A DNA stretch of 64,000 nucleotides from Bispira polyomma (lineage: Eukaryota). Where the stretch lies: NCBI GenBank assembly GCA_965649765.1, contig OZ287759.1, positions 46,748,001-46,812,000 on the forward strand, given 5' to 3'. The position numbers and the translations under genes are program-made. Shown in pieces: positions 875-61,262 of the stretch. The stretch's first letter is position 1. The number at the start of each line of letters is the position of its first letter. Below the pieces are notes generated by a model, which did no database searches, was not told the origin of the DNA, and saw only the letters and a list, made by a program, of their open reading frames with translations.

Positions 875-1045
875 CAGCCGTGGTTTCAAGAGTTGTCTGT
901 GATATCAAATGCCAGACTATTTAGTATGCCTCAGTGAGAAGATAGAGCAATTGTCCCATGGTCAATTTGTCACCGCAAGCAAATCACCACACTAATTACC
1001 CTACACCTTATTGTGTGGCTCTAACTAACTGGTAATAACTGCAAA

Positions 1046-1099
1046 AAAGGCCAACAGCAAAAACACACACACAAAACATTGTGTCAACAGTATTTTATT
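1046..1099 (-). terminator. Distal poly(A) signal AATAAA (1094-1099) with GU-rich downstream element, isoform 3A
   Basis: Minus strand AATAAA followed by tgttttgtgtgtgtgtttttgctgttgg; conserved in unit B. Confidence 0.55.
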
Positions 1100-1624
1100 A
1101 TATTTTTATCCAATATTTTATTGAGATTTTTTACATGTCTAACAGAGTAAGCACACAATATTAATATAACACTAAATTTGCATTGTTGATAAGGTTCAGA
1201 GAGAGAAAAAAAAAGACATTTTAATTTTAGAGGTGACCCCTTCAACATTTTTTGTCCTTTATATGAATACATGAAAAAAACATATTAACTGATGCTGGAA
1301 TGAACATTTTCATACAGTTTTTAAATAATGATTAAATTACAATTTTTTTTATAATTCTATATACAATTTGTAAGTGGTTGGTTTTTTTGTTGTTTTTTTT
1401 TGCTCTCTCCATACATAAGTTAACATAGCTTGCTAAACTAGGAAACACCTTCTCCTATCCAAAGTAGCAGATATTTGATAAAGGCCAGACATGTCCAAAA
1501 GTAACAATTCCCTATAACAATTACTCCACTGGAGTTAATACATCTACTTGTTAAAAAGCTAATCTGTCTAGTTCACTATATACAGATACATACATGTAAA
1601 CTTGTGTCAATTTTCATCAATTTG

Positions 1625-1810
1625 AATTTAGTTTGGTTTTAACGTCACTTTCCACAACTTAGATCATGTTAAAAAGGCCAGATTATATGGTGGAAGAAAT
1701 CATCACTGTAAACCTCTGACCTACATGAAGGAACGAATAGGACATCGTATTCACATTGGTGAGAGGCCAGTGATTATCAGCAAGCGCTTCGAACCACTAG
1801 ACCACCATAA
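1625..1810 (-). mobile_element. S2-type SINE remnant present in duplication unit A only
   Basis: Reverse complement has head ggtggtctagtggttcgaagcg and tail gaaagtgacgttaaaacc; absent at the equivalent position of unit B. Confidence 0.6.
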
Positions 1811-2166
1811 TTCTTAACTTAGTATTAATTTAAATCTAATATTTTGGCATGGCCTTTCGACCGCCCGAAAAGTAAAAATTTTGATGGTAATCCTAGTGGC
1901 ATCAAAAAGAGCTCATGAGACTTAGTTTAAGTCAAAAATGTTTTGGGGAATACCGATTCTGGATTATAAACTGAGGGAATTTCAAAAATGTTTTTTTTTA
2001 AAATGCATTAAGGCTTAAGTATCACAGTCATCCTTTGTAAGACAAAATATCAAGGTGTCTATAGTTCCTAGTTAAACCTGATATACACATTTTAGTGCCA
2101 GCTAGAAATTGAATGCAATGGTATTTGATTTCAGAACATCAAAGGCCAAATAATACATGTTAAACA

Positions 2167-2172
2167 TTTATT
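2167..2172 (-). terminator. Candidate proximal poly(A) signal in 3A UTR (paralog at 6409-6414 in 3B UTR)
   Basis: AATAAA inside a block that is highly conserved between the two units, followed by U/GU-rich sequence. Confidence 0.4.
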
Positions 2173-4094
2173 TTACACAAACTTTTCTATATACAGCATC
2201 ATTACAATAGCTTAAGTTAATATCATAGCAGCCACTACATAAATATACACTATAAATATTAATATGACACACAATATGACTGACACAGAAATCATACCCT
2301 TAAAACAATGACTCTATCGAAGTTGCAAAACCAGTTTTAGGGGAATATATTGTTTGTTATGTAATGTTTTCATGACAATTTAAAATTTAAGGACAGTTTG
2401 CAGGGTGTAGTGATTTAAATCATAGTTAAAACATATGTGATAAATTTAGATTTTTAAAATGAAATTTGTTTAAAAAACATTTTATGTAAACAAGAATTAT
2501 GACCAATATAACAGACGCAAAAATGACTCAGGCTCTTAAAATGGGTCAAGGGTATCAATATTTCACTTTTTTATGATAGCAGTAACGGCTATATAACTGA
2601 AAATCAGCGTTTTAACCAGATTAAAGAAATTGGATTTAGTTGAACATATAGCAAAAGCAAAGAGTTGCCTTTAATTTATGCTTACATATTGTTAGTAAAA
2701 GAAACGTGCACTATTGTCTTAATGTCAATATTTGTGGGAATACAAATCTCTCTCTTTTTTAAAGCACAATTAATAAAATGTTTATAATTTATATCTAATA
2801 CATTCCATGAATAAAATACACATATATTTAGAGTATTTGTAACTACACAAAAATCTAACCCTACACTCCATCAAGGTATAAAGGACACTATTTATATTAA
2901 GAACACACCATATTTTCTTGTAACCGTTAGAGGAATAATTGGTGGGGTAGAGACAACACTCTCGCCTCTGTGAACTTTGCCGTTGGGCTTGATTCTTAGC
3001 CACGGCATCATGTATGTAGAAAAGTTGTAGATTCTATAAGTCACTGGACAAGGCACAGCCAGTCAGGAAATTTTTGGCATATGAATACATTGTTTAGATG
3101 AAATCATTAACACCAAACCTAAAGATTCACACTGAACCTTAAACACTGTGATGGTATGGACACCCAACCCTTATGCTAGAATGATATATAAATGTGTTAA
3201 AATATATCTTTTTATTTTGGGAACAAATTTTAATTTGGCCGAGCCCTGTCTAGTAAATTCTGCAATTTAGCCAAAAGTTTGCACAAGATTTGCTTAAGGG
3301 TCAGTGTTCTGCAGTGCAAACAAACCTTGACTAATTGCCCTGTATTGCTTTTATCGCCACCAATAAATTTTTTCATGACATGCCAATACATAAATCTATG
3401 CTGGTATTAGCTATTCCAACCCTTCTACAATATCTCTTTGGTACAACCACCACCAATTAACTTTCACCGCTTACTTTCTGCAAAAACTTCAAGCACTGCA
3501 TTGCAAGCTATATCATCCAAACAAAAGTATCGCAGACCATACAAAATAAGCTCAATTGAAATAAAAACATTGGTAACCAATGATCAAATTTATGTATAAC
3601 ATTTTGAAATAAGATACACTATTATCAAGCAACAATAAAATGTTTCAGATCTTATAATGTGAAAACAAGGACAATATGTTTTTGGTTCCAATGTGTATGT
3701 ATCATATGCAAAACTAATCATAGTGGACAGTTTTTTTATCTTTCAACATACGATTTCACTTGTATTCCTTAACTTTTACTTTATGGATATATATATATAT
3801 ATATATATACATAACTCTACCTCTGCACTTCTTCTGCTGGGCCTCAGCAGCTGCAATCAGTATCACAACCTCGTACTGATTGGCTAGTTTTTTTTTTATA
3901 TTAATGCCCATATAAACCAATAAGACAGCTGATTAGAAAATATCAACCTTTTATAGCAATGTAAGATGTCACCATCACTTGGGGGTAACCAGACCTGGTA
4001 ACACATAGCCATATGTGTTTTGATTAATACAGGAATAAACATTGTGCACACCTAATTACATTGTTTTGGTGTCTAAACTGAACCGTCTGGACTG

Positions 4095-4391
4095 TCATTT
4101 CTTGTAGGATGGTCTGCGGCCCCTTCGGAGCCCGTGTCTCCGTGGCCTGTGTTGGTGTTGATGGCTTTTCTTGTTAACAACAAACTGAGCGATTCCAAAG
4201 TTACCACTCATGTCTGTGGCTTTACAGTAAAACAGGTTGGGGCCTTTGTCCAGTAGATACCAGTAGTTCTTGTTCAGTGTCAGAAGCTGCTTCACGCGAT
4301 ACTCATTGCTGAAATCGGTGACACTCATGGGAGTCAGACTTAATCCAGGGTAGCCAGAATCCAGAGGCATGTGGGTTTCGTCAAACTGTCT
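4095..4391 (-). CDS. Terminal coding exon 3A (distal): alternative C-terminal half of Ig-like domain + His/Arg-rich tail (RQFDETHMPL…FYCKATD…GRRPSYKK*)
   Basis: Acceptor gtttttattttAG|AGA CAG, phase 0. 98 codons + TGA. Intact frame; the net length difference from 3B is a multiple of 3. Confidence 0.8.
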   Translation of the reverse strand, partial: RQFDETHMPLDSGYPGLSLTPMSVTDFSNEYRVKQLLTLNKNYWYLLDKGPNLFYCKATDMSGNFGIAQFVVNKKSHQHQHRPRRHGLRRGRRPSYKK

Positions 4392-5288
4392 CTAAAATAA
4401 AAACACAAGAAACACAAGAGACTATATAATTAATGCTTTAAGAACAGACATAGCAGGTACTATAGGATGGGTAATCAAATTTGTATGATATTATATATTC
4501 AAATTTTACACTCTCAATCAGCACCAGTAACTGTCATTCTCCTTATTGAAGAGAGGGACTTAAGGATGACCATTTATCAACATACATAATATTATTTAGC
4601 CTGTCACTGGTGATAGGAACCAGTTGACATAGAACTGCAATTTTAGTGGTTATCTGAACCACTATCTATCTGCCTGTACCTGAGTGTGTTACCCGCTGGG
4701 CTACATTGGTGGAGCTTCAACTTGGAATATGGCATATACTTTTTGAAACATCAGAGCTTCCGTTTTAGAAGTTGATAAGCTGTTGCTCTCTTGTTTGGCT
4801 TCCTACTTCAGTCAGGGGAATAATAGTTGCTGGTGTTGGTTGATTATGCCACTTTGACATAGTGGGTAAACTTATGCTATATCTACGATATAGAGTGGTG
4901 CATACATTAAAAAAATGGCGTTGTCCTCTGCCACTTGGTCATGTTCCCAGTGGCAGGTTAAGAGCCTGGTGTGGTGTTAAATTCTTCAGACTAAGGGGAA
5001 TGATAAGTTGCTAGTGTTCGTTGACTGTGGTTGGACAGCTCACATGGCCAATTTTGGTGTTTTTATACCAGATAAAACCAAAGGTAGAGTAAACATATAA
5101 ATATGAATACTTACACCTTACATTATATGAACTTTTATATGAACTAATCCACACGATATGTTTCCAGGCTTCCGAGAGGAGATGGCAATATACCTTGGCA
5201 GTGGTTTTACCATTATATATGGGTTCTATAATTATGGTAATATAGTTGAGTAACCCGGTGGATGATTGTTATATTGTAGATTTCTCTT

Positions 5289-5355
5289 AAAGGCCAACAG
5301 AAAAGGTCAACAACAACAAAAAGCACCGAAAATCTTGTGTCAACAGTATTTTATT
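5289..5355 (-). terminator. Distal poly(A) signal AATAAA (5350-5355) with GU-rich downstream element, isoform 3B
   Basis: Minus strand AATAAA followed by ggtgctttttgttgttgttgaccttttctgttgg. Confidence 0.55.
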
Positions 5356-8300
5356 TTCATCCAATATTTTAATAAGATTTTTACATGTCTAACAGAGTAA
5401 GCACACAAGATTAATATAACACTGCATTTGCATTGTTGATAAGGTTCAGATAGAAATAAAATATTTAAATTATAGGGGTGACCCCTTACGACAAGTTTTT
5501 GATTCATATTCACATGTATATATCATATCAACTGAAGCTGGAATGAACATTCATATAGGTTTTAAATATATATTAAACTACAATTTTTATCTTCTATGTA
5601 CAATTAGCAAATGCTGGGTTTTTTCTCTCTCCAAACATAAATAACATAATTTTCTATTTTAGAGAACACAACCCCTACCAAAGAAACACATATGCCATGA
5701 AGGTCTTACATATCTAAAAGTAACAATTCCCCACAATAATTACTCTGTTATTTACTACATCTACTTGTTGAAGAGCTAGCTGCCTAGTTCACTATATACA
5801 CATATGTACATAAATATATATATATAATATATATATATATATAACTTCACAATAATTTTGCTCCAGGGCTGGTTTTCATAACAGGTCTTAGCTTATGCTT
5901 AAATGTAAAATTTTGATTTTAGACCTACTGACATTTTAAAAAACTTAGTGCTTAGTACTAACTGTTCCCTGAATAAAAATACTAACATAAGTTAGTCTCA
6001 AATACTTCAGTTTAGGACCAAGTTTAAGACATTTTTTGTAAATACCGACCCTGGATGATAAACTACGGGAATTTCTGAAATAATTATTTTCTATTATCCA
6101 AATGCATTGAGGCTTAAATATCACAGTCATCTTTTTGTGAGACAAAATATCAAAGTGTCTATTGTTTCTGGTTTAAACAGATACAAAGACAAACAAGCTG
6201 TCCATAGGATATTAAAAGAAATTCTGTATGAACATCTTCTTCTCGATAATGCTACTAAAATCATAGGGTTTTTAAGATGTCTCTTATACAAAACTATATG
6301 GCACCTATATCATAACCAAGAGATAAAGCCAACAAGAAATTGAATGCAATGGTATTTGATTCCAGAACATTTAGTCAACATCAAAGGCCAATAAATACAT
6401 GTTAAACATTTATTTTACACAAACATTTCTACATACACATACATAAATACAACAGCTTAAGTTAATATCATAGCAGCCACTACATAAATATATACCATAA
6501 ATATTAATATGACACACAATATGACTGACACAGAAATCCTTGCTTTAAAACAATGACTTTATTGAAGTTGCTAAACCGGTTTCAAACACTCTGGTTTTTT
6601 TTGGTTTTGTGGAGATACAGCTGTTGTTGTGTAATATGTTTTAATGACAATATAAAATTTCAGGTCATTGTTTTCTTAGTTTATCACATAATATTTGTAT
6701 ACCGATGCTGGCAGTTAAAACATTTGAAATAAATCCAGTGTATTCAAAAGTGAAATTGATTTCCTTTTCAAATGTATACAAACAAACATTATGACCAATA
6801 TTAAAGAAAAACCACTGCTTTTACTAAAGCTTTTAGATGTGTCAAGAGTATCAATATTTCACTTTTTATAATAGCAGTATTGGCTATATAACTTTGAAAA
6901 TAAGTGTTTTAATTAGGTTAAAGAGATTGGGTTTAGTAGAACATACAGTAAAACCAAAGAGTTGCCTTTTATTTACGCTTACACATAGTTAGTAAAAGAA
7001 ACATACACTAATAATGTCTTAATGTCATTATTTCTAGGAATACAACTGTCTCTATTTTAAAGCACAATTAATCAGCTGTATATAATTCATCTATAATACA
7101 TTCCATGACATGATTTTCAATGCAATATGTATTTAGATGTTTTAGAGTAACTACACAAATCTGACCCAATCTAGGGTAGTTTACACTCCATAAGGTATAT
7201 AAGACACTATTTATATTAAGAACACACCATTTTCTATTTTTGTAGCAACAGTTTAAGGGGACAATTTGTGGTGTGTAGAGATAATACTCTCATCTCTGAC
7301 TTCTGGTGTTGGGCTTTCAATTTTGGGCCGCGGCATCGTGTATGTGGGAAAGTTGCAGATTGATTTTAAAATTCATTTGATTTGGCCACAGCCATGTTGG
7401 ATATTTGGGCATATATGAAGGCTCACACTAATCGCCAAATGGTGTGATATGAGTAAATATCGAACAACCCTAATTCTGTGATATTTTAATGCATCAGAAT
7501 AATATTTTTATCTCTTTTATTTTGGGAACAAATTGCAATAAAACCTCACTGTGTCTTTCATGAATTCTAAAATTTTAGCCCTAAGTTGGCAGTAGACTTG
7601 CTTCAGGGGCCAGTGGTTTGCAGTGCACACAGACCTTGATCAACTATCCCATACTGCTTATGTCTGTACAAAAATACATTTTTCCATCCCGATACAAAAT
7701 GCAAATATAAATCTTTGCTCAAAGAATCTCTTCTACAATATCTGTATGGTACAACCACCACCAATCTACTTTCACCATTTACGGCCAAAACCTCGATCTC
7801 TGCATTGCTATCTATATCACCCAAACGAAAGTATCGCAGACCTTACAAAAATGCTCAATTAAAAAATAAACAAAAATATTATTTTTACATTTAAACTCTG
7901 TATTTTGCAATTTTGTAATAGATGTTGCAGAAAGGTCAAATTGATGCATATAATTTTGAAATAACATACACTATTGTCATGCAACAGGAAACGTTTTTAA
8001 TCTTATAATGTGAAAAAAAAGAGTGGACGTGTTTTTTTTTAACCTTTCAACATACGATATCACTTGTATTCCTTAAGTTTCACTTCATGAATATCTATAT
8101 ACACAGCTCCACCCCAGCTTTTATTCTGCTGGGCCTCACCAACTGCATTCAGCACCACAACCTGGTTCTGATTGGCTAGTTTTTTTTTATGTTAATGCCC
8201 ATATGAACCAATGAGACTGCTGGTTACAAAATGTCAACTGTTTATAGCAATGTAAAGACGTCACCAGCAATTTCGGTGGAAGCCAAGTCTGGTGACACAT

Positions 8301-8393
8301 AGCCATATGTGTTTTGAATAGAACAGGAATATACATTAGTGTACACCCTAATCAAAACACAGTTTTGGTGTCTACACTGAACCGTCAATACTG

Positions 8394-8699
8394 TCATTTC
8401 TTATAGGACGGTCTGTGGCCCATTCGGTGCCGGTGTCTTCGTGTCCTGTTGCGCTGGTGTTGATGGTGATGGTTTTTCTTGTTGATCCAAAAGTAAGCGT
8501 ACCCAGAGTTACCACTCATGTCTGTGGCCTTGCAGCAAAACAAGTTTCGGCCATTGTCCAGTAGATACCAGTAGTTCTTGTTCAACGTCAGCAGCTGCTT
8601 CACCCGAGAATCGTGGCTGAAATCGGTGACGCTCATGGGGGTCAGACTTAATCCAGGGTAGCCGGAATCCAGAGGCATGTGGGTTTCATCAAACTGTCT
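8394..8699 (-). CDS. Terminal coding exon 3B (proximal): C-terminal half of Ig-like domain + His/Arg-rich tail (RQFDETHMPL…FCCKATD…GHRPSYKK*)
   Basis: Acceptor tttttcttatAG|AGA CAG is phase 0, matching the exon 2 donor. 101 codons + TGA. E-strand LLTL and F-strand F-x-C-x-A motif. Paralogous to 4095-4391 with synonymous differences. Confidence 0.85.
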   Translation of the reverse strand, partial: RQFDETHMPLDSGYPGLSLTPMSVTDFSHDSRVKQLLTLNKNYWYLLDNGRNLFCCKATDMSGNSGYAYFWINKKNHHHQHQRNRTRRHRHRMGHRPSYKK

Positions 8700-11600
8700 C
8701 TATAAGAAAAAAACACAAATATAACATATAATTAATGTGTTAATAGCCATTGCAGGTACCATAGGGGTACATCATGTTGTACCTTTGTATTTATATTCTT
8801 CACCTTTATCTACCTTTATTCTGGTATTCAAACAACTTCAATTTCGTGTTTTCCAAAGTATGGCCAAACAGCACCAATAACTATCATCCTGCTAATTGAA
8901 GAGTGAGGCATTAAAGTTGAGCATTTATTGCTTCTTAAAACACCAGAGCTTGTGACAGCCTATTGCTCTCATGTTTGGCTTCCTACTTCAGTCAGGGGAA
9001 TAACAGTTACTGGTGTTGGTTAACTGTGCCACTGTGACCAAGTGTGTAAACACATGCATCAGAATTCGGTCCCAGGCCTGGTGATACATAGTGGTGTATA
9101 CAAAGTGGTTTGAGTGACAACTTATAATACTATTGTCCTTTTGTCACTTCATACTGTGTCCAGTGGCAGGTTTTAAAGAACCTGGTGCAGTGTTAAATGG
9201 GTTATCCTCTAAAGCTTTTGTATTCAGACCTAGGGGAAAGATTAGTTACCAATGTTGGTTGACTCCGATGGACAGCCCACATGGCCCAATTAGTGTGTTT
9301 TATATACCAGACTAAAAGTAGACAAAGAGTAGACAATTAAAAATCAATACTTACACTATGCATCAGTCATCTTACATTATATGAACTTTCAATCTACATA
9401 ATATGTAGCCAGGCTACCGAGAAAAAGATGGCCATATTTCCAATGCCATCCCGTTGTTCTAGCTTTTTATATGGCTTCTATCATTATGGTATGAGGTGGA
9501 GTAACCAGTAATCATATTGTAGCCCCAAAAGGTTGGCTAACTCTTGCTGTCCATGTTTTCTGCTATGTACTTCAAGTTACCAGTGCATACTCTATGGATA
9601 AAATGTGAATTTACAGCAGTATGTCTTACATTAATTATACAAGAAGGACCCCAAAAAGTGTCTGGGTATTCTTCTTTATTTTTTCATTTCCCCCGAAAGA
9701 ATTCCACAGGAATGTGTTGATTACTGTAGTTGTTTGTACAAGTGACAGCCGTTTATCAGATTTACATACTTGCCTAATGTAGGGAATCAGCTCAAGTGAA
9801 CAGATGCAAACGTGTGGAAAATCAAACGATCATCCAAATAAACACTGAGGATTATTACTGTACACAGACAATACACAGTCGGCTAACATTGGACACAAAA
9901 CGGTGCTGCTCAATTGGACTTACTTAATAAAGGACTACCAAAGTCTTTGCCCCAAAAGTCTATCTACCAACAAGAGTTGTCGTTTAAAATAGGGCACACA
10001 GGCGCATAGTGTGAAATACACCAAACGTTGATATGGGCCACTATATTACTCAGGCCCCATGCTGCACTAACAATGACTAACAATAAATTTGAAACCCACT
10101 CAGTTTTGGCCAGTTTGATTTGCTTACAACCGATCCGTGAAAACCTCAGAGAGTGTCTAAGATGACGTCGCCCTTTTTATAATACTGCGCATTGATAAAA
10201 ATCACTTCTAACTGTCTTCCAAAAACCTGTTGTCATTTTTATTAGTAATTTGAAATAAGTGTGACATTTTATATATTTAGATATGCTGTACACTCCCAAG
10301 AAATGTGAAAACATTTAGGTGTTTCTTTTTTTCTTCTTTTTTTTTGAGGTCCTATTTACATGTATATTTATAGCATTGACAATATATTTATATACATATA
10401 AATACCTTATGTATAAGTGACATAAGGTGTTTTTACATATCTCTCCCTCCCATTAGATGTCAAAAGAACTGGACTCAGAAAGCCTTATTGCTATTACCAT
10501 TCTCTATTCAGGTCCTCAATTTTTCAGTCTGCTTGTTTGAGACCATTTCAAACTTCTTTTACATTTACAGATTTAAATACAAGGGGGAAGAGGGGGACCC
10601 CCTTTTCTACATGTCGACTTTTTGCATTCCTTTCTGACCCGCTGATGGCAATTTCACATTTACCTAACTCTGGTTAACAGATATAATCAGTCTTTCAAAA
10701 CAGTGTACATGTATGTATTTATATATATATATATATATACCATAATATCTTTACTATAAGCCCCCAGTGTGTTTTTCCAAAAAGGCAATTTCCTATTACG
10801 AGGAAGCTGAATGAAATTAATAAGTTTTATAATAATATTTCTGGGGTGTCGACGGCTATTTGACGGACACATCGATTCTGGGACTAACAAAAGCTTAAAC
10901 TAAACAATTGGTTGACAAGTTGAAGAACCAAGGCTGGGGGTGTAATCATGTCAAAGTGCATTAGATAACAGTAATGTTAACAACTGCGCTTTTGAGAATT
11001 ATAATTATTATTATCATTACACATTTATCTAATACAAATCACACTATTTTCACACATTGCCACAAGTGCCCGATTTTACGATATTATGCTATTATAATTT
11101 ATCTGTAGTAGCCGTTGAAATAGTGCCATTTGATTATCTCTCAAATTCTCTTTACAAAGGAGTGGGGTGTATAACTATTAGAGGCCTTTAATATGTAAAA
11201 TATGGTATATAAGTGTGTGTTGAAATTTCTTGTGTATTGCACTATTTGCTAGAACTTTGGGAGTCAATTAGAAAAAGTTTTTTATCCACCCAATCCTTCT
11301 TTAGACTGAAAAATTAGTTGTTTTTTATGATATGGCAATTGATTTCTAAATATTTTTTGTCCGATATCAAAAACTGAATCATTACACTCATTTGTAAAGT
11401 GCAGTACACAAAAACAGTTACTGTGCTTAATAAAGGACGCATGCCACAGCTTTGAATGTCGCTCACAAAATTTTTCGATATTCTAGAATTAAAGAGTGAT
11501 ATTCAACAATATATCTGTCAGCAAAAGAAAAACAAAATAAGCCATTAACTGCAGTGTAATCTGAATAAAAATAAATCTAGTTCTCATAATTTTTACGGTT

Positions 11601-27649: not shown

Positions 27650-27784
27650 GAAAGAGTTTGCTAGAATGTGGTTATGTCTATCTAGGAGAAATAGAAGACC
27701 TGTATTCTGTGTCTAAAAAATGTCACTGTGTGCAATAAAAAAACAAATAGATCCAGACTATTTAACTTTTGACGAGAAAGTAAG

Positions 27785-27924
27785 AAGAGAAGTAGAGTTT
27801 TGTGGGAAGAAAAGTAGAGTTTTATGGGAAGAGAAGTGGAATTTTGTGGGAATAGAAGTAGAGTTTTGTGGGAATAGAAGTAGAGTTTTGTGGGAAGAGA
27901 AGTAGAGTTTTGTGGGAAGAGAAG
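27785..27924. repeat. 22-bp purine-rich minisatellite (AAGAGAAGTAGAGTTTTGTGGG) x6.4
   Basis: Six near-identical units plus a partial one. Confidence 0.95.
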
Positions 27925-34699: not shown

Positions 34700-35375
34700 A
34701 TTCTGCTTGAAATCAACTACATCACGACTTTGAAAGCTATTGTCTCTCAACAGCCCAGGGCCGCGGCGGCATAGTGGTTAGCAAGCATTGCGCTTCACAA
34801 TCACTGGTTTCTCACCTCTGGGCGGCGTGAGTTCGAATCCTGTCGATGCCTATGTGGGAAAGGTGGTAGTTCCTTACTGTGGGCCACTGGTTTCAGTGCA
34901 GAACCTTGACCGACTGTATGCAGTGTTTCCTCCAGCGTTTCCAACTACCCGTCCCAATATAACCTACTAAAAGGTACTAGAGTAGACGTTAAATATCCAA
35001 ATTCAAATTCTCTCAACAGCCCCTACCTTGCTATTCGTCTTTCCTTCAGTAACAGCCTCAAGAGAGAAAAGAGATTTTTAGTTTCCTCTGTCAATCCGAC
35101 CAAGAGGCCTGGATCTAGAGCTTTCACTATTGCATCCCTATGTTATGGAGTATGCTCCCAGTTGAGCTTTGAATCACTAGAAACACTTTCTGGGTTCAGA
35201 AGAAAACTTAAAACCTATTGATCTTCCCCTAAATCCCCTCCCTATTCACCCACTACATCCTTTCTTATGACCTGGCTATGTTTTTTGGTGATTTTTCTAC
35301 TGGTTATTGATTCTGTTGTTGCATTCTAGAAATTGTATTGCATCAAAAAGCCACGTTAATAAATTCAAAATATAA
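34700..35375 (+). mobile_element. L2/CR1-group LINE 3' fragment (interrupted by S1); same family at ~19677-19862(-), 24080-24200(-), 26570-26720(+), 42160-42625(+), 43170-43390(-), 43930-44065(+), 50490-50890(+), 58930-59100(+), 62005-62250(+)
   Basis: Copies translate piecewise to G-x-RAFSIAAP-x-LWNSLPVELRSLETLSGFRRKLKTY, the L2-type ORF2 C-terminus, followed by a common 3'UTR. Confidence 0.8.
34757..35008 (+). mobile_element. SINE S1, full length, nested in an L2 fragment
   Basis: A/B boxes; TSD tctctcaacagccc (34743-34756 / 35009-35022). Confidence 0.92.
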
Positions 35376-37141: not shown

Positions 37142-37399
37142 AACTGGAATTTGAACTTGGATATTTAACGTCCACTCTAGTACCTGTTTAGGTTATATTG
37201 GGACGGGTAGTTGGAAATGCTGCAGGAAACACTGCATACAGTTGATCAAGGTTCTGCACTGAAACCAGTGGCCCACAGTAAGGAACTACCACCTTTCCCA
37301 CATAGGCATCGACAGGATTCGAACTCACACCACCCAGAGGTGAGAGACCAGTGATTGTGAAGCGCAATGCTTGCTAACCACTAGGCCACCGCGGCCCCC
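37142..37399 (-). mobile_element. SINE S1, full length
   Basis: A/B boxes; TSD ttgttacaaga (37131-37141 / 37400-37410). Confidence 0.92.
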
Positions 37400-37429
37400 T
37401 TGTTACAAGAGACACAGTCATTGTAGTGC

Positions 37430-44296: not shown

Positions 44297-44449
44297 AGGG
44301 GGCCGCGGTGGCCTAGTGGTTAACAAGCATTGCACTTCATAATCGCTGGTCTCTTACCTCTGGGCGGCGTGAGTTCGAATCCCTTCGATGCCTATGTGGG
44401 AAAGGTGGTAGTTCTGTCGATGCCTATGTGGGAAAGGTGGTAGTTCCTA
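44297..44449 (+). mobile_element. SINE S1, 3'-truncated with internal 30-bp duplication
   Basis: S1 head; tcgatgcctatgtgggaaaggtggtagttc occurs twice; TSD aaacctcaaa(c/t)tg. Confidence 0.88.
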
Positions 44450-45593: not shown

Positions 45594-45790
45594 GATTTGA
45601 ATCTGAATTGGGATATTTAATGTCCACTCTAGTACCTGTTTAGGTTGTCTTGAGACGGATAGTTGGAAACGCTGGAGGAAACACTGCATACAGTTGATCA
45701 AGATTCTGCACTGAAACCACAGTAAGGAACTACCACCTTTCCCACATAGGCATCGACGGGATTCGAACTCACGCCAGCCGATCCCAGAGG
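45594..45790 (-). mobile_element. SINE S1, 5'-truncated (gggatcggctggcg subfamily)
   Basis: Matches S1 body and tail. Confidence 0.88.
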
Positions 45791-50890: not shown

Positions 50891-51007
50891 TATTTGAAAA
50901 TATTGCATGCGCAAAAGCTAAGCCACCGGCTACTGCATGTTCCAAATAGTTGATGGCATGTGCATAGTACTAGGTAAGTTACTAATTAAAATCATATAGT
51001 AGTCCCC

Positions 51008-51256
51008 AGGGCCGCGGTGGCCTAGTGGTTAGCAAGTATTGCGCTTCACAATCACTGGTCTCTCACCTCTGGGCGAGTTCGAATCCCATCGATGCCTATG
51101 TGGGAAAGGTGGTAGTTCCTTACTGTGGGCCGCTGGTTTCAGTGCAGAGCCTTGATCAACTGTATGCAGTGTTTCTTCCAGCGTTTCCAACTACCGGTCC
51201 CAATATAACCTACTAAAAGGTACTAGAGTAGACGTTAAATATCCCAATTCAAATTC
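51008..51256 (+). mobile_element. SINE S1, full length
   Basis: A/B boxes, S1 body and tail; no clear TSD. Confidence 0.9.
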
Positions 51257-52757
51257 TTTACCACTAGCCTTTTCATAGTGGTTCTACAAATGACACACAT
51301 TTCCCTACTCTTAACATTTCACATATTATGACAGGGTTTTTTCTTACAAATTTTTGTATGTGTCACAATAATTTCTCAAACCCCTGGGAACTTCTAAAAT
51401 AAGCACCTTGATTGTTGTGAGGAGGGAGGCGGGTGGGTAGAAAATATGTCAAAGATTTGTGTTCTCTTTCTGTAAAGCGACACCCCCTCCACATACAAAG
51501 GTTAGTTGATTGCATGCTAATGGACAATTTAAGGAGAAGGCCTTTAAAAAACATGCCATCAAATGAAACGTCTGTTCAGATGTCATCATTGGAAAAAAGG
51601 TTGGCATTCATTTTTAACCGCATTCTTTTTTTTTTTTGAGAATTCCAGTATCAAAACTGTAATTATCAGGCAGGTGTACAAATGGATACAAGACGTTGTA
51701 TCAGTGACGTTATAACGAATACATTTTTCCCTGGCTTGTGTTATTCCACACTTTATTTACTTGTTTATTTCTGTGGGCTCAAGACTGCACAAATACACAA
51801 ATAATAATACTATTCCAATTGCAGTCTATACATACTTACATTAGATTCAGGGTTTTGTGTATTACCTTTAAATAAATTGTCATAAACAAAATGTCCACGC
51901 CCCAAAATATTACTTTATTTTTTTATCAGTTCTATGCAATAGAAATGCAAAAATTATCATCACTTAAGTAAAAATGGGCCATAACTTTCATAATTTAGGT
52001 AATTGAAAAGATTTTAAAAATATTTTATATGTATTAAATTATTTTTAATTTCATAAAAGTTATAAACATTGAGTAAAAATTGTTTGTTAAAATCTAAAAT
52101 TTTAATATAAACAACAACAAAAATTAAATTTGAAAAAATGAATTAGGTTTGTTTTCAAAATAAAAATTGAATCGAAAACAAATGTACTTCGAACAGTATA
52201 CAAACAGAATTAAGTGTTTGAACCTTCCTTGTTTTGTACCATATGTATAAACACACTCTTCCAATACTTCACATAGCTGGAACATTCCTTTCTGTGTTTT
52301 GAAAAAGCAAGTGACGTCATAGCATCACGTGATCAAAGAGAGATTGAGATCAAGGATATGACGTCAGTGTAAACAAACCAATTCTTCCCCAGTACATGCT
52401 GACTTTACTTTATTAACCTTTAATTCTGTGTCAGAAAATGCATGGAAAAAGAGAATTGATGTAGGTGGACCTATTTGTTTAAGAAACTGATCTGCTTAAT
52501 GGTTTTAACCTTTTCATGGTTGGGTTGTGGCATACACTCACAGATATGACATGATCAGTGTCTCAAGAAGCTCAGACTGGCGCTGGTGTGGAATGTGCTT
52601 AATACAAGATGCAGACGTGGCCTTCAGATCGCTTTTGGGCTCCTTGAGAATGTTAAACAAGAATTGTCCTTTTTTCAAAAGACATAGAGGCCACAGTGTG
52701 ACTTGCAAAAAGTCAGTTTGGCTGGATCGATTGCTTCCAACCAATCAATGAAGGCCT

Positions 52758-60999: not shown

Positions 61000-61262
61000 G
61001 GGGTGGCCTAGTGATTATCAAGCATTGCACTTCACAATCACTGGTCTTTCACCTCAGGGATCGGCTGGCGTGGGTTCCACTCCCGTCGATGCCTATGTGG
61101 GAAAGGCGGTAGTTCCTTTCTGTGGGCCGCTGGTTTCAGTGCAGAACCTTGATCAACTGTATGCAGTGTTTCCACCAGCGTTTCCAACTATCTGTCCCAA
61201 TATAACCTAAACAGGTACTAGAGTGGACTTTAAATATCCCAATTCAAAGTCAAATTCAAAAT
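61000..61262 (+). mobile_element. SINE S1 (gggatcggctggcg subfamily)
   Basis: S1 body; TSD tcttag(a/g)actaaca (60986-60999 / 61263-61276). Confidence 0.9.

What the first reader, a model, noticed from the sequence alone, without database searches (positions are those of the whole stretch)
4095..8699. Both terminal exons look selected, with substitutions clustered in predicted surface segments
Seen: the first 28 codons differ at 4 positions, all synonymous (GAC/GAT, TCT/TCC, ACT/ACC, AGT/AGC). Amino-acid changes concentrate in NEY>HDS, K-G-P>N-G-R, Y>C, the last strand FGIAQFVV>SGYAYFWI (three new aromatics) and the tail. Inference: purifying selection on the core plus divergence of one face, i.e. 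different ligand specificity rather than neutral decay.
Basis: partly seen in the sequence, partly recalled or inferred. Interest (0 to 1): 0.7.

Follow-up and report, generated by a model that had tools for sequence, protein, structure and literature searches.

The report
Duplicated last exon, secreted Ig protein
An invertebrate gene for a small, predicted secreted antibody-fold protein carries two intact, selectively conserved copies of its last exon, so it likely makes two versions that differ mostly on one predicted outer face, a known way of diversifying proteins seen here in a family with no name.

Summary
The two exons (- strand, 8699-8394 and 4391-4095) lie in a 4.25-kb tandem duplication holding acceptor, last exon, 3'UTR and poly(A) signals. 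One shared upstream exon (20294-20060) is single-copy in the genome. A full-length homolog joins the same two halves and folds as one Ig domain (pLDDT 83), with a signal peptide before it and a basic tail after it. Purifying selection holds: dN/dS 0.24 over codons 1-76, and a model with one copy neutral since duplication is rejected. The most conserved non-coding blocks surround AATAAA in both UTRs. Changes fall on inferred outward F/G-strand positions (6 of 10, against 1 of 11 inward and 4 of 54 elsewhere), so 'one face' is largely right. But dN/dS on that face (1.55) is not significantly above 1, these sites vary across the family, both copies changed, and 'three new aromatics' is mis-polarised. 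A ligand switch is plausible, not shown; use of both exons is inferred. Verdict: tandemly duplicated alternative terminal exons, a known kind (PGRP-LC, pipe), in an unnamed family of secreted single-Ig proteins.

The parts
20060..20294 (-). Shared coding exon: predicted signal peptide (no ATG inside the exon) and Ig strands A, A', B (Cys) and C; AG acceptor at 20296-20295, GTAAGT donor from 20059, phase 0 to the last exon
   Evidence: single match in the genome; aligns to residues 30-80 of full-length homolog P0030, ending on the same ISFF
8394..8699 (-). Proximal last exon (copy b), coding part: Ig strands C', D, E, F, G and a His/Arg-rich tail; has an extra Cys55 next to the conserved Cys56, and W71
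4095..4391 (-). Distal last exon (copy a), coding part: same strands and basic tail
5298..9506 (-). Proximal duplication unit: about 0.8 kb of intron, last exon b, about 3 kb of 3'UTR
   Evidence: self-BLAST, alignment
1042..5255 (-). Distal duplication unit: about 0.85 kb of intron, last exon a, about 3 kb of 3'UTR; non-coding parts differ from the proximal unit at 25% of 3516 aligned bases
5350..5450 (-). Conserved 3'UTR block with AATAAA (5355-5350) followed by a U/GU-rich stretch: candidate poly(A) site of copy b
   Evidence: 6 mismatches in 100 against copy a; 0 of 2000 permutations reach it
1094..1200 (-). Matching conserved block with AATAAA (1099-1094, also 1122) and GU-rich downstream stretch: candidate poly(A) site of copy a
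6338..6558 (-). Second conserved UTR block of copy b around AATAAA at 6414: candidate shorter-UTR poly(A) site
   Evidence: 6-8 mismatches per 100
2107..2313 (-). Second conserved UTR block of copy a around AATAAA at 2172
8484..8555 (-). Codons 49-72 of copy b: end of E-F loop, F strand, F-G turn, G strand; holds 8 of the 11 domain changes, 6 of them at inferred outward positions (51, 55, 65, 67, 69, 71); the matching stretch of copy a is 4176-4247

Best explanation
One gene for a small, predicted secreted single-Ig-domain protein with a basic tail carries two intact tandem copies of its last exon, each with its own acceptor and conserved poly(A)-signal blocks, and likely makes two isoforms by alternative 3'-end choice that share the front half of the domain and differ mainly on the predicted outer face of the F-G hairpin. 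Shown: the duplication, the single shared upstream exon, intact frames and splice signals, dN/dS well below 1, conserved UTR blocks, the Ig fold of a full-length homolog. Inferred: the donor at 20059 splices either to 8699 (transcript cut at the proximal poly(A) site) or, when that exon and site are skipped, to 4391; the protein is secreted; its basic tail tethers it to polyanions such as matrix glycans and may be clipped at the RX(R/K)R motif that both copies keep; the F/G face, which IgSF domains often use for partners, binds a protein partner whose affinity or identity would differ between isoforms. Whether the face diverged by selection or by relaxed constraint is open (my odds about 35:65).
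For: Duplication unit and boundaries. Only two matches to the last exon and one to the shared exon in the 1.04-Gb genome at E<=0.001; no further exon copy in 264 kb around the gene. Homolog P0030 (180 aa) matches both exons in order, and a paralog 0.96 Mb away has an intron at the same phase-0 point. Purifying selection: ratio 0.24, P=1.8e-4; with one copy neutral since duplication 17-21 differences are expected in codons 1-62, 6 are seen (2 of 5000 and 0 of 5000 simulations). The best-conserved non-coding windows (6 of 100 against a mean of 25) cover AATAAA in both UTRs. AlphaFold2 of P0030 with a 10-row alignment: mean pLDDT 83, 88-96 over the domain; best structural match NCAM Ig1, Z 13.3, rmsd 2.0 over 100 residues. 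Changes at 6 of 10 outward F/G positions, 1 of 11 inward, 4 of 54 elsewhere. Contigs of 3 of 3 DNA-like runs hold both copies; 16 of 16 listed other letters are those of the distal copy.
Against: Splicing of the shared exon to each last exon is inferred from sequence only, and the ATG-bearing first exon was not located (5 candidates with strong donors). The model is of a homolog 32-36% identical, not of either isoform, and inward/outward labels come from strand register and invariant residues, not from computed accessibility. The face was defined after the differences were known. Face dN/dS 1.55 is not above 1 significantly (P=0.43), and changed sites are the family's variable ones. Codons 1-62 were chosen after looking at the data; the one-neutral-branch simulation was not run for 1-76. 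A pairwise ratio cannot see a recent loss of function of one copy. No ortholog with both exons was found, so the age and spread of the duplication are unknown.
Confidence: 0.7

Rival explanations
1. Both last exons are used, but what matters is regulation (tissue, stage, 3'UTR or dose); the proteins are functionally equivalent and the F/G face drifted because it is weakly constrained.
For: Face dN/dS is compatible with 1 (P=0.43) and positions 51, 65, 67, 69, 71 show 4-5 residue types among 6 outgroups. Both UTRs keep conserved blocks. Tail charge is unchanged: 10 R+K and no acidic residue in each.
Against: Other family-variable sites changed far less (4 of 25 against 5 of 8, P=0.02). V71W needs three base changes, I67Y and Q69Y two each. 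Y55C and Q69Y sit on inferred neighbouring strands and look like an exchange of one aromatic.
Confidence: 0.4
2. Only the proximal exon is now used; the distal copy was functional for most of its history but is a recently silenced remnant behind the proximal poly(A) site.
For: The distal exon needs read-through of about 3 kb of UTR with two candidate poly(A) signals. Copy a carries probable derived changes at 65 and 69.
Against: Copy a keeps its acceptor, frame, stop, all of the family's nearly invariant residues that copy b keeps, and both conserved poly(A) blocks; long-term neutrality is rejected.
Confidence: 0.15
3. The likeness of parts of the two units is kept by gene conversion, not by selection.
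For: Tandem copies 4.3 kb apart; a 31-base stretch of the exons is identical; UTR blocks of 92-94% identity.
Against: Synonymous divergence is high in the very codons that lack replacements (pS 0.21 in codons 1-28, 0.38 in 29-62), as high as in the intron (0.30); conversion would erase both kinds of change alike.
Confidence: 0.07
4. The second copy is an assembly artefact (two haplotypes written in tandem).
For: Two similar units side by side.
Against: 25% non-coding divergence with many indels; both copies at about equal contig depth in runs X1 and X2 (8.3-8.8 against 8.9-9.7; 13 against 14-16).
Confidence: 0.02

Closest known systems
Tandemly duplicated, mutually exclusive 3' cassettes of Drosophila PGRP-LC, pipe and CG42235 (PMC6191721, abstract and Discussion read; PMC9013439, passages read)
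   Same: Common 5' exons followed by tandem homologous terminal cassettes, each with its own 3' end; one cassette per mRNA; in PGRP-LC the isoforms differ in recognition.
   Different: Here two copies, one exon each; the exon border cuts one Ig domain after strand C, so only the back half and the tail are swapped; no docking/selector pairing was found beyond ends of a dispersed repeat; isoform use is not shown.
Ig-superfamily I-set/V-like domains (NCAM Ig1 5aea_A, Dscam Ig7-9 6zr7, basigin 7xy8_A)
   Same: Fold of the homolog model (Z 12.6-13.3); B- and F-strand cysteines; A-A'-B-C-C'-D-E-F-G strand order.
   Different: 10-13% identity; Phe or Tyr where the C-strand Trp is usual; G-x-N-x-F-x-C instead of D-x-G-x-Y-x-C (canonical motif recalled); stands alone as a secreted protein with a basic tail; no Pfam match.
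Interleukin-18-binding protein (secreted single-Ig decoy; PMC9313042, search listing only)
   Same: Architecture: signal peptide plus one Ig domain. ESM Atlas ranks clusters with PF22009 first (0.92, family on 44% of members) and third (0.91) for P0030.
   Different: No Pfam PF22009 match for any of 13 family sequences; all top Atlas hits are generic Ig clusters; no ligand known. A lead on architecture, not orthology.
Basic-tailed secreted factors such as class-3 semaphorins (PMC6387194, start of abstract seen)
   Same: An Ig domain followed by a basic C-terminal tail; RX(R/K)R motifs in the tail (matrix tethering and convertase release recalled, not read).
   Different: No Sema or PSI domain; no sequence link found.

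Membership tests
Tandemly duplicated alternative terminal exons (PGRP-LC/pipe type) | Homologous terminal cassettes in tandem, same strand | tested here: met
Tandemly duplicated alternative terminal exons (PGRP-LC/pipe type) | Shared upstream exon present once | tested here: met
   1 match in G000 at E<=0.001; the only other relative belongs to the paralog 0.96 Mb away
Tandemly duplicated alternative terminal exons (PGRP-LC/pipe type) | Each cassette has an acceptor in the same phase, open frame, stop and poly(A) signal | tested here: met
Tandemly duplicated alternative terminal exons (PGRP-LC/pipe type) | Both spliced isoforms seen in RNA | not testable with these tools
   only DNA-like contigs could be laid
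Tandemly duplicated alternative terminal exons (PGRP-LC/pipe type) | Docking/selector RNA pairing (present in some members only, PMC6191721) | tested here: inconclusive
   only arms of a dispersed repeat pair (-43 to -60 kcal/mol, local and cross pairs alike)
Immunoglobulin superfamily domain | Two-sheet Ig sandwich | tested here: met
   on homolog P0030; the two isoforms themselves were not folded
Immunoglobulin superfamily domain | Cys in strands B and F | tested here: met
   Cys61 of the shared exon, Cys56 of both last exons
Immunoglobulin superfamily domain | Trp in strand C (recalled; not kept in all members) | tested here: not met
   ISFF here and in P0030, VSFY in the paralog
Immunoglobulin superfamily domain | Match to a curated Ig profile | tested here: inconclusive
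   1 of 13 sequences hits PF00047 at E=0.31; most are half domains
IL-18-binding protein family (PF22009) | Profile match | tested here: not met
   0 of 13 sequences, full-length P0030 included
IL-18-binding protein family (PF22009) | Binds an IL-1-family cytokine | not testable with these tools
   no ligand known
Class III receptor tyrosine kinase Ig domain 3 (CSF-1R) | Sequence homology | tested here: inconclusive
   best PDB sequence hit of profile A5 at E=0.3, second of A6 at E=0.12

The most novel reading that the evidence does not exclude
An unnamed invertebrate family of secreted, matrix-tethered single-Ig proteins has gained a specificity switch: alternative last exons swap the F/G half of one binding face under positive selection, while the shared exon supplies the A'/C half, and the proximal isoform's extra surface cysteine lets it form covalent dimers or adducts that the distal isoform cannot.
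Probability: 0.25. Interest if true: 0.6.

Novelty: new member of a known kind. Interest (0 to 1): 0.33.

Why it matters
The mechanism is known. What is new is the host: a small family of secreted one-Ig proteins with no Pfam family, no named member among the 7 relatives found, and no description in three literature searches. If both isoforms are made, they form a natural matched pair that points to the binding face of the family (positions 51, 55, 65, 67, 69, 71 around an invariant outward Lys57) and makes a search for the partner direct. It is a modest example of 3'-exon duplication splitting a single domain, not a new kind of system.

Tried and rejected
RNA: no RNA holder listed. The three runs laid read through the acceptor into the intron, so they are DNA; they are at most 2 samples of 1 study and may include the assembly's source; contigs of X3 break at a GATC inside the exon, as a restriction-based library would (my inference), so its lower depth on copy b is not read as a deletion; no polymorphism data came out. 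Self-association: two copies of P0030 residues 38-157 gave no answer (score 0.00, alignment not used). Single-sequence folding failed (pLDDT 40). Pfam: nothing for the three exons. HYR-domain proteins dominate the phmmer list through a short C-x-A-T-D-x-x-G likeness and repeat summing; of its 59 hits I kept 5 single-stretch short proteins as family members, read 9 and scanned 11 against Pfam, and did not read the rest. Longer or fused relatives: none (weak evidence). Metagenome contigs: 85 pattern matches, none confirmed. Docking/selector pairing: only dispersed-repeat arms. An alignment with N-half and more than three C-half fragments could not be made correctly, so the folded alignment has depth 1 over the N-half. 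Phylum: an erythrocruorin-linker match first suggested an annelid, but linkers occur in ten phyla (PMC6400237, abstract), no haemocyanin domain match is uninformative, and the mitochondrial contig shows only the invertebrate code with genes on both strands; phylum left open. No earlier finding near this place or with this sequence. Supplements of papers were not read; none bears on a claim here as far as I know.
Full report
What is there. Self-comparison of the window shows a tandem duplication, about 1042-5255 against 5298-9506. Each unit holds, on the - strand, 0.8 kb of intron, a pyrimidine tract with AG, a phase-0 coding exon ending in TGA (copy b 8699-8394, copy a 4391-4095), and about 3 kb of 3'UTR. 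An exon at 20294-20060 encodes a hydrophobic N-terminal stretch and the first half of an Ig-like domain and ends in a phase-0 GTAAGT donor. The 1.04-Gb genome holds two matches to the last exon and one to this upstream exon at E<=0.001; 100 kb on each side of the window hold no further copy. The upstream exon has no ATG; five upstream candidates with strong phase-2 donors exist and none could be chosen.

The gene model. phmmer over 1.84 billion representatives gave 59 hits; most are long proteins hit through many short stretches (HYR repeats in 6 of 6 long ones scanned), and 5 are short single-stretch relatives. A profile search added 2. None has a name beyond 'hypothetical protein'. One, P0030 (180 aa), is full length: it matches the shared exon (33%, E 1e-5 pairwise) and the last exon in order, with no extra segment at the junction. 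A paralog on the same chromosome (C12:47711653-47716487) has the same phase-0 intron, plus one more, and a basic tail. So the window gene encodes signal peptide, one domain and a basic tail, and the intron cuts the domain in two.

Fold. AlphaFold2 on P0030 alone failed; with a 10-row alignment it gave mean pLDDT 83 and 88-96 over residues 41-160, with strands A, A', B, C, C', D, E, F, G. Foldseek and VIA-align both rank NCAM Ig1 first (Z 13.3, rmsd 2.0, 100 residues, 13% identity), among many tied Ig domains. No Pfam family matches. The ESM Atlas gives Ig clusters, some with the IL-18BP-like family, at 0.90-0.92: a lead on architecture only.

Selection. Over codons 1-76, dN 0.093 and dS 0.39 (ratio 0.24; Fisher P=1.8e-4); over 1-62, 0.11; over 63-73, 1.0. 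If one copy had been neutral since the duplication, 17-21 amino-acid differences are expected in codons 1-62; 6 are seen (2 of 5000 and 0 of 5000 simulations at two divergence values). This range was chosen after seeing the data and the test cannot see a recent loss. An open frame alone is weak evidence (17-25% of neutral simulations stay free of stops). Outside the coding part, the units differ at 25% of 3516 aligned bases, but the best 100-base windows differ at 6, 6 and 8; they lie at or beside AATAAA at 1099/5355 and 2172/6414, followed by U- or GU-rich sequence (0 of 2000 permutations reach 6). Both 3' ends therefore look maintained, though conversion cannot be excluded for these blocks. 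Contigs of 3 of 3 runs hold both copies; the 16 of 16 listed other letters equal copy a.

Where the changes fall. Using the model's strands and the register fixed by invariant F54, C56, G63 and F70, odd positions of strands F and G face out (inference from Ig geometry; coordinates of the model were not available for accessibility). Six of 10 outward positions differ (51, 55, 65, 67, 69, 71), 1 of 11 inward (V72I), 4 of 54 elsewhere (29-31 in the D-E loop, 49 in the E-F loop); P=0.024 and 5e-4, and 0.02 when only family-variable sites are compared. [quoted passage not shown] The shared exon supplies its A' and C strands. Against a selected switch: the face has dN 0.61 against dS 0.39 (ratio 1.55, P=0.43), the category was drawn with the differences known, and changed sites are more variable among six outgroups than unchanged ones (4.3 against 2.8 residue types, P=0.003; P0064 left out as a near copy of P0058, P0065 for its long insert). 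Both copies changed: by the closest outgroup P0006, F65 and Q69 of copy a and C55, W71, I72 of copy b are derived. 'Three new aromatics' is thus not right; the face has Y55 and F65 in a, Y67, Y69 and W71 in b. Copy b has an odd cysteine (55) at an outward position. The tails differ in sequence but keep 10 R+K and no acidic residue, and both keep an RX(R/K)R motif, as do P0030, P0006, P0017 and the paralog (read); the other four relatives end without a basic tail.

How it likely works. The donor at 20059 is joined to the proximal exon and the RNA is cut at a proximal poly(A) site, or the proximal exon and UTR are skipped and the distal exon is used. Simple scanning and poly(A) competition suffice for 3' cassettes; competing RNA pairings act in some genes only (PMC6191721, Discussion read). 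I found only ends of a dispersed repeat as possible pairing arms. The products would be secreted, held near the cell by the basic tail (inferred by analogy, recalled), and would present two versions of the F/G face. I put 0.7 on both exons being in use, and about 0.35 on a selected difference in binding given that.

Comparison and novelty. Duplicated, mutually exclusive terminal exons are described for Drosophila pipe and PGRP-LC (PMC9013439 and PMC5740500, passages read; PMC6191721). An earlier AI note of this scan reports a like case in a CUB gene of another genome (not tested). Searches for this protein family or for such a case in an Ig protein listed nothing that describes it (listings only; 0 papers; PMC11999971, passages read, has no such family); these word searches cannot exclude an unnamed entry in a transcriptome paper. 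The organism is an invertebrate with mitochondrial code 5; the phylum is open. Verdict: real, ordinary in mechanism, new member of a known kind, in an unnamed protein family; interest 0.33.

Noticed in passing
G000:C12:47711653-47716487 (+), locus L035:1653-6487: Paralog of the same family, three coding exons, same phase-0 intron after strand C plus a second intron after strand E, longer acidic D-E loop, basic tail; last exon not duplicated within the 140 kb examined.
   Followed up: partly
window 52552-52542 and 32710-32688 (-): Two of five candidate first coding exons (ATG plus a strong phase-2 donor) that would complete a plausible signal peptide; not decidable without RNA.
   Followed up: partly
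window 4509-4551 with about 4800-4850, and 8865-8910 with 8986-9028: Each unit's intron holds inverted arms of a dispersed repeat 120-460 bases before the acceptor; cross-pairing between units is as strong as local pairing and would loop out the proximal exon, but a third copy at 17018 pairs better still.
   Followed up: partly
window 14512-14759, 34754-35011, 37147-37400, 44300-44414, 45595-45790, 51005-51257, 61002-61255: A 250-base tRNA-like interspersed repeat (SINE-like; label from recall) in at least seven copies, 86-94% alike.
   Followed up: no
G000:C75 (L051, L052): Mitochondrial contig of 15,503 bases, invertebrate code, genes on both strands, two tRNA-Met(CAT) calls and a run of seven tRNAs before cox3.
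   Followed up: partly
proteins P0045, P0058, P0064, P0065: Four relatives end shortly after strand G with no basic tail, so the family has tailed and tail-less members; P0065 has a long basic insert in the D-E loop instead.
   Followed up: no
window 24280-24435 and 27784-27924: Short tandem arrays (about 20- and 22-base units) in the upstream intron or intergenic DNA.
   Followed up: no
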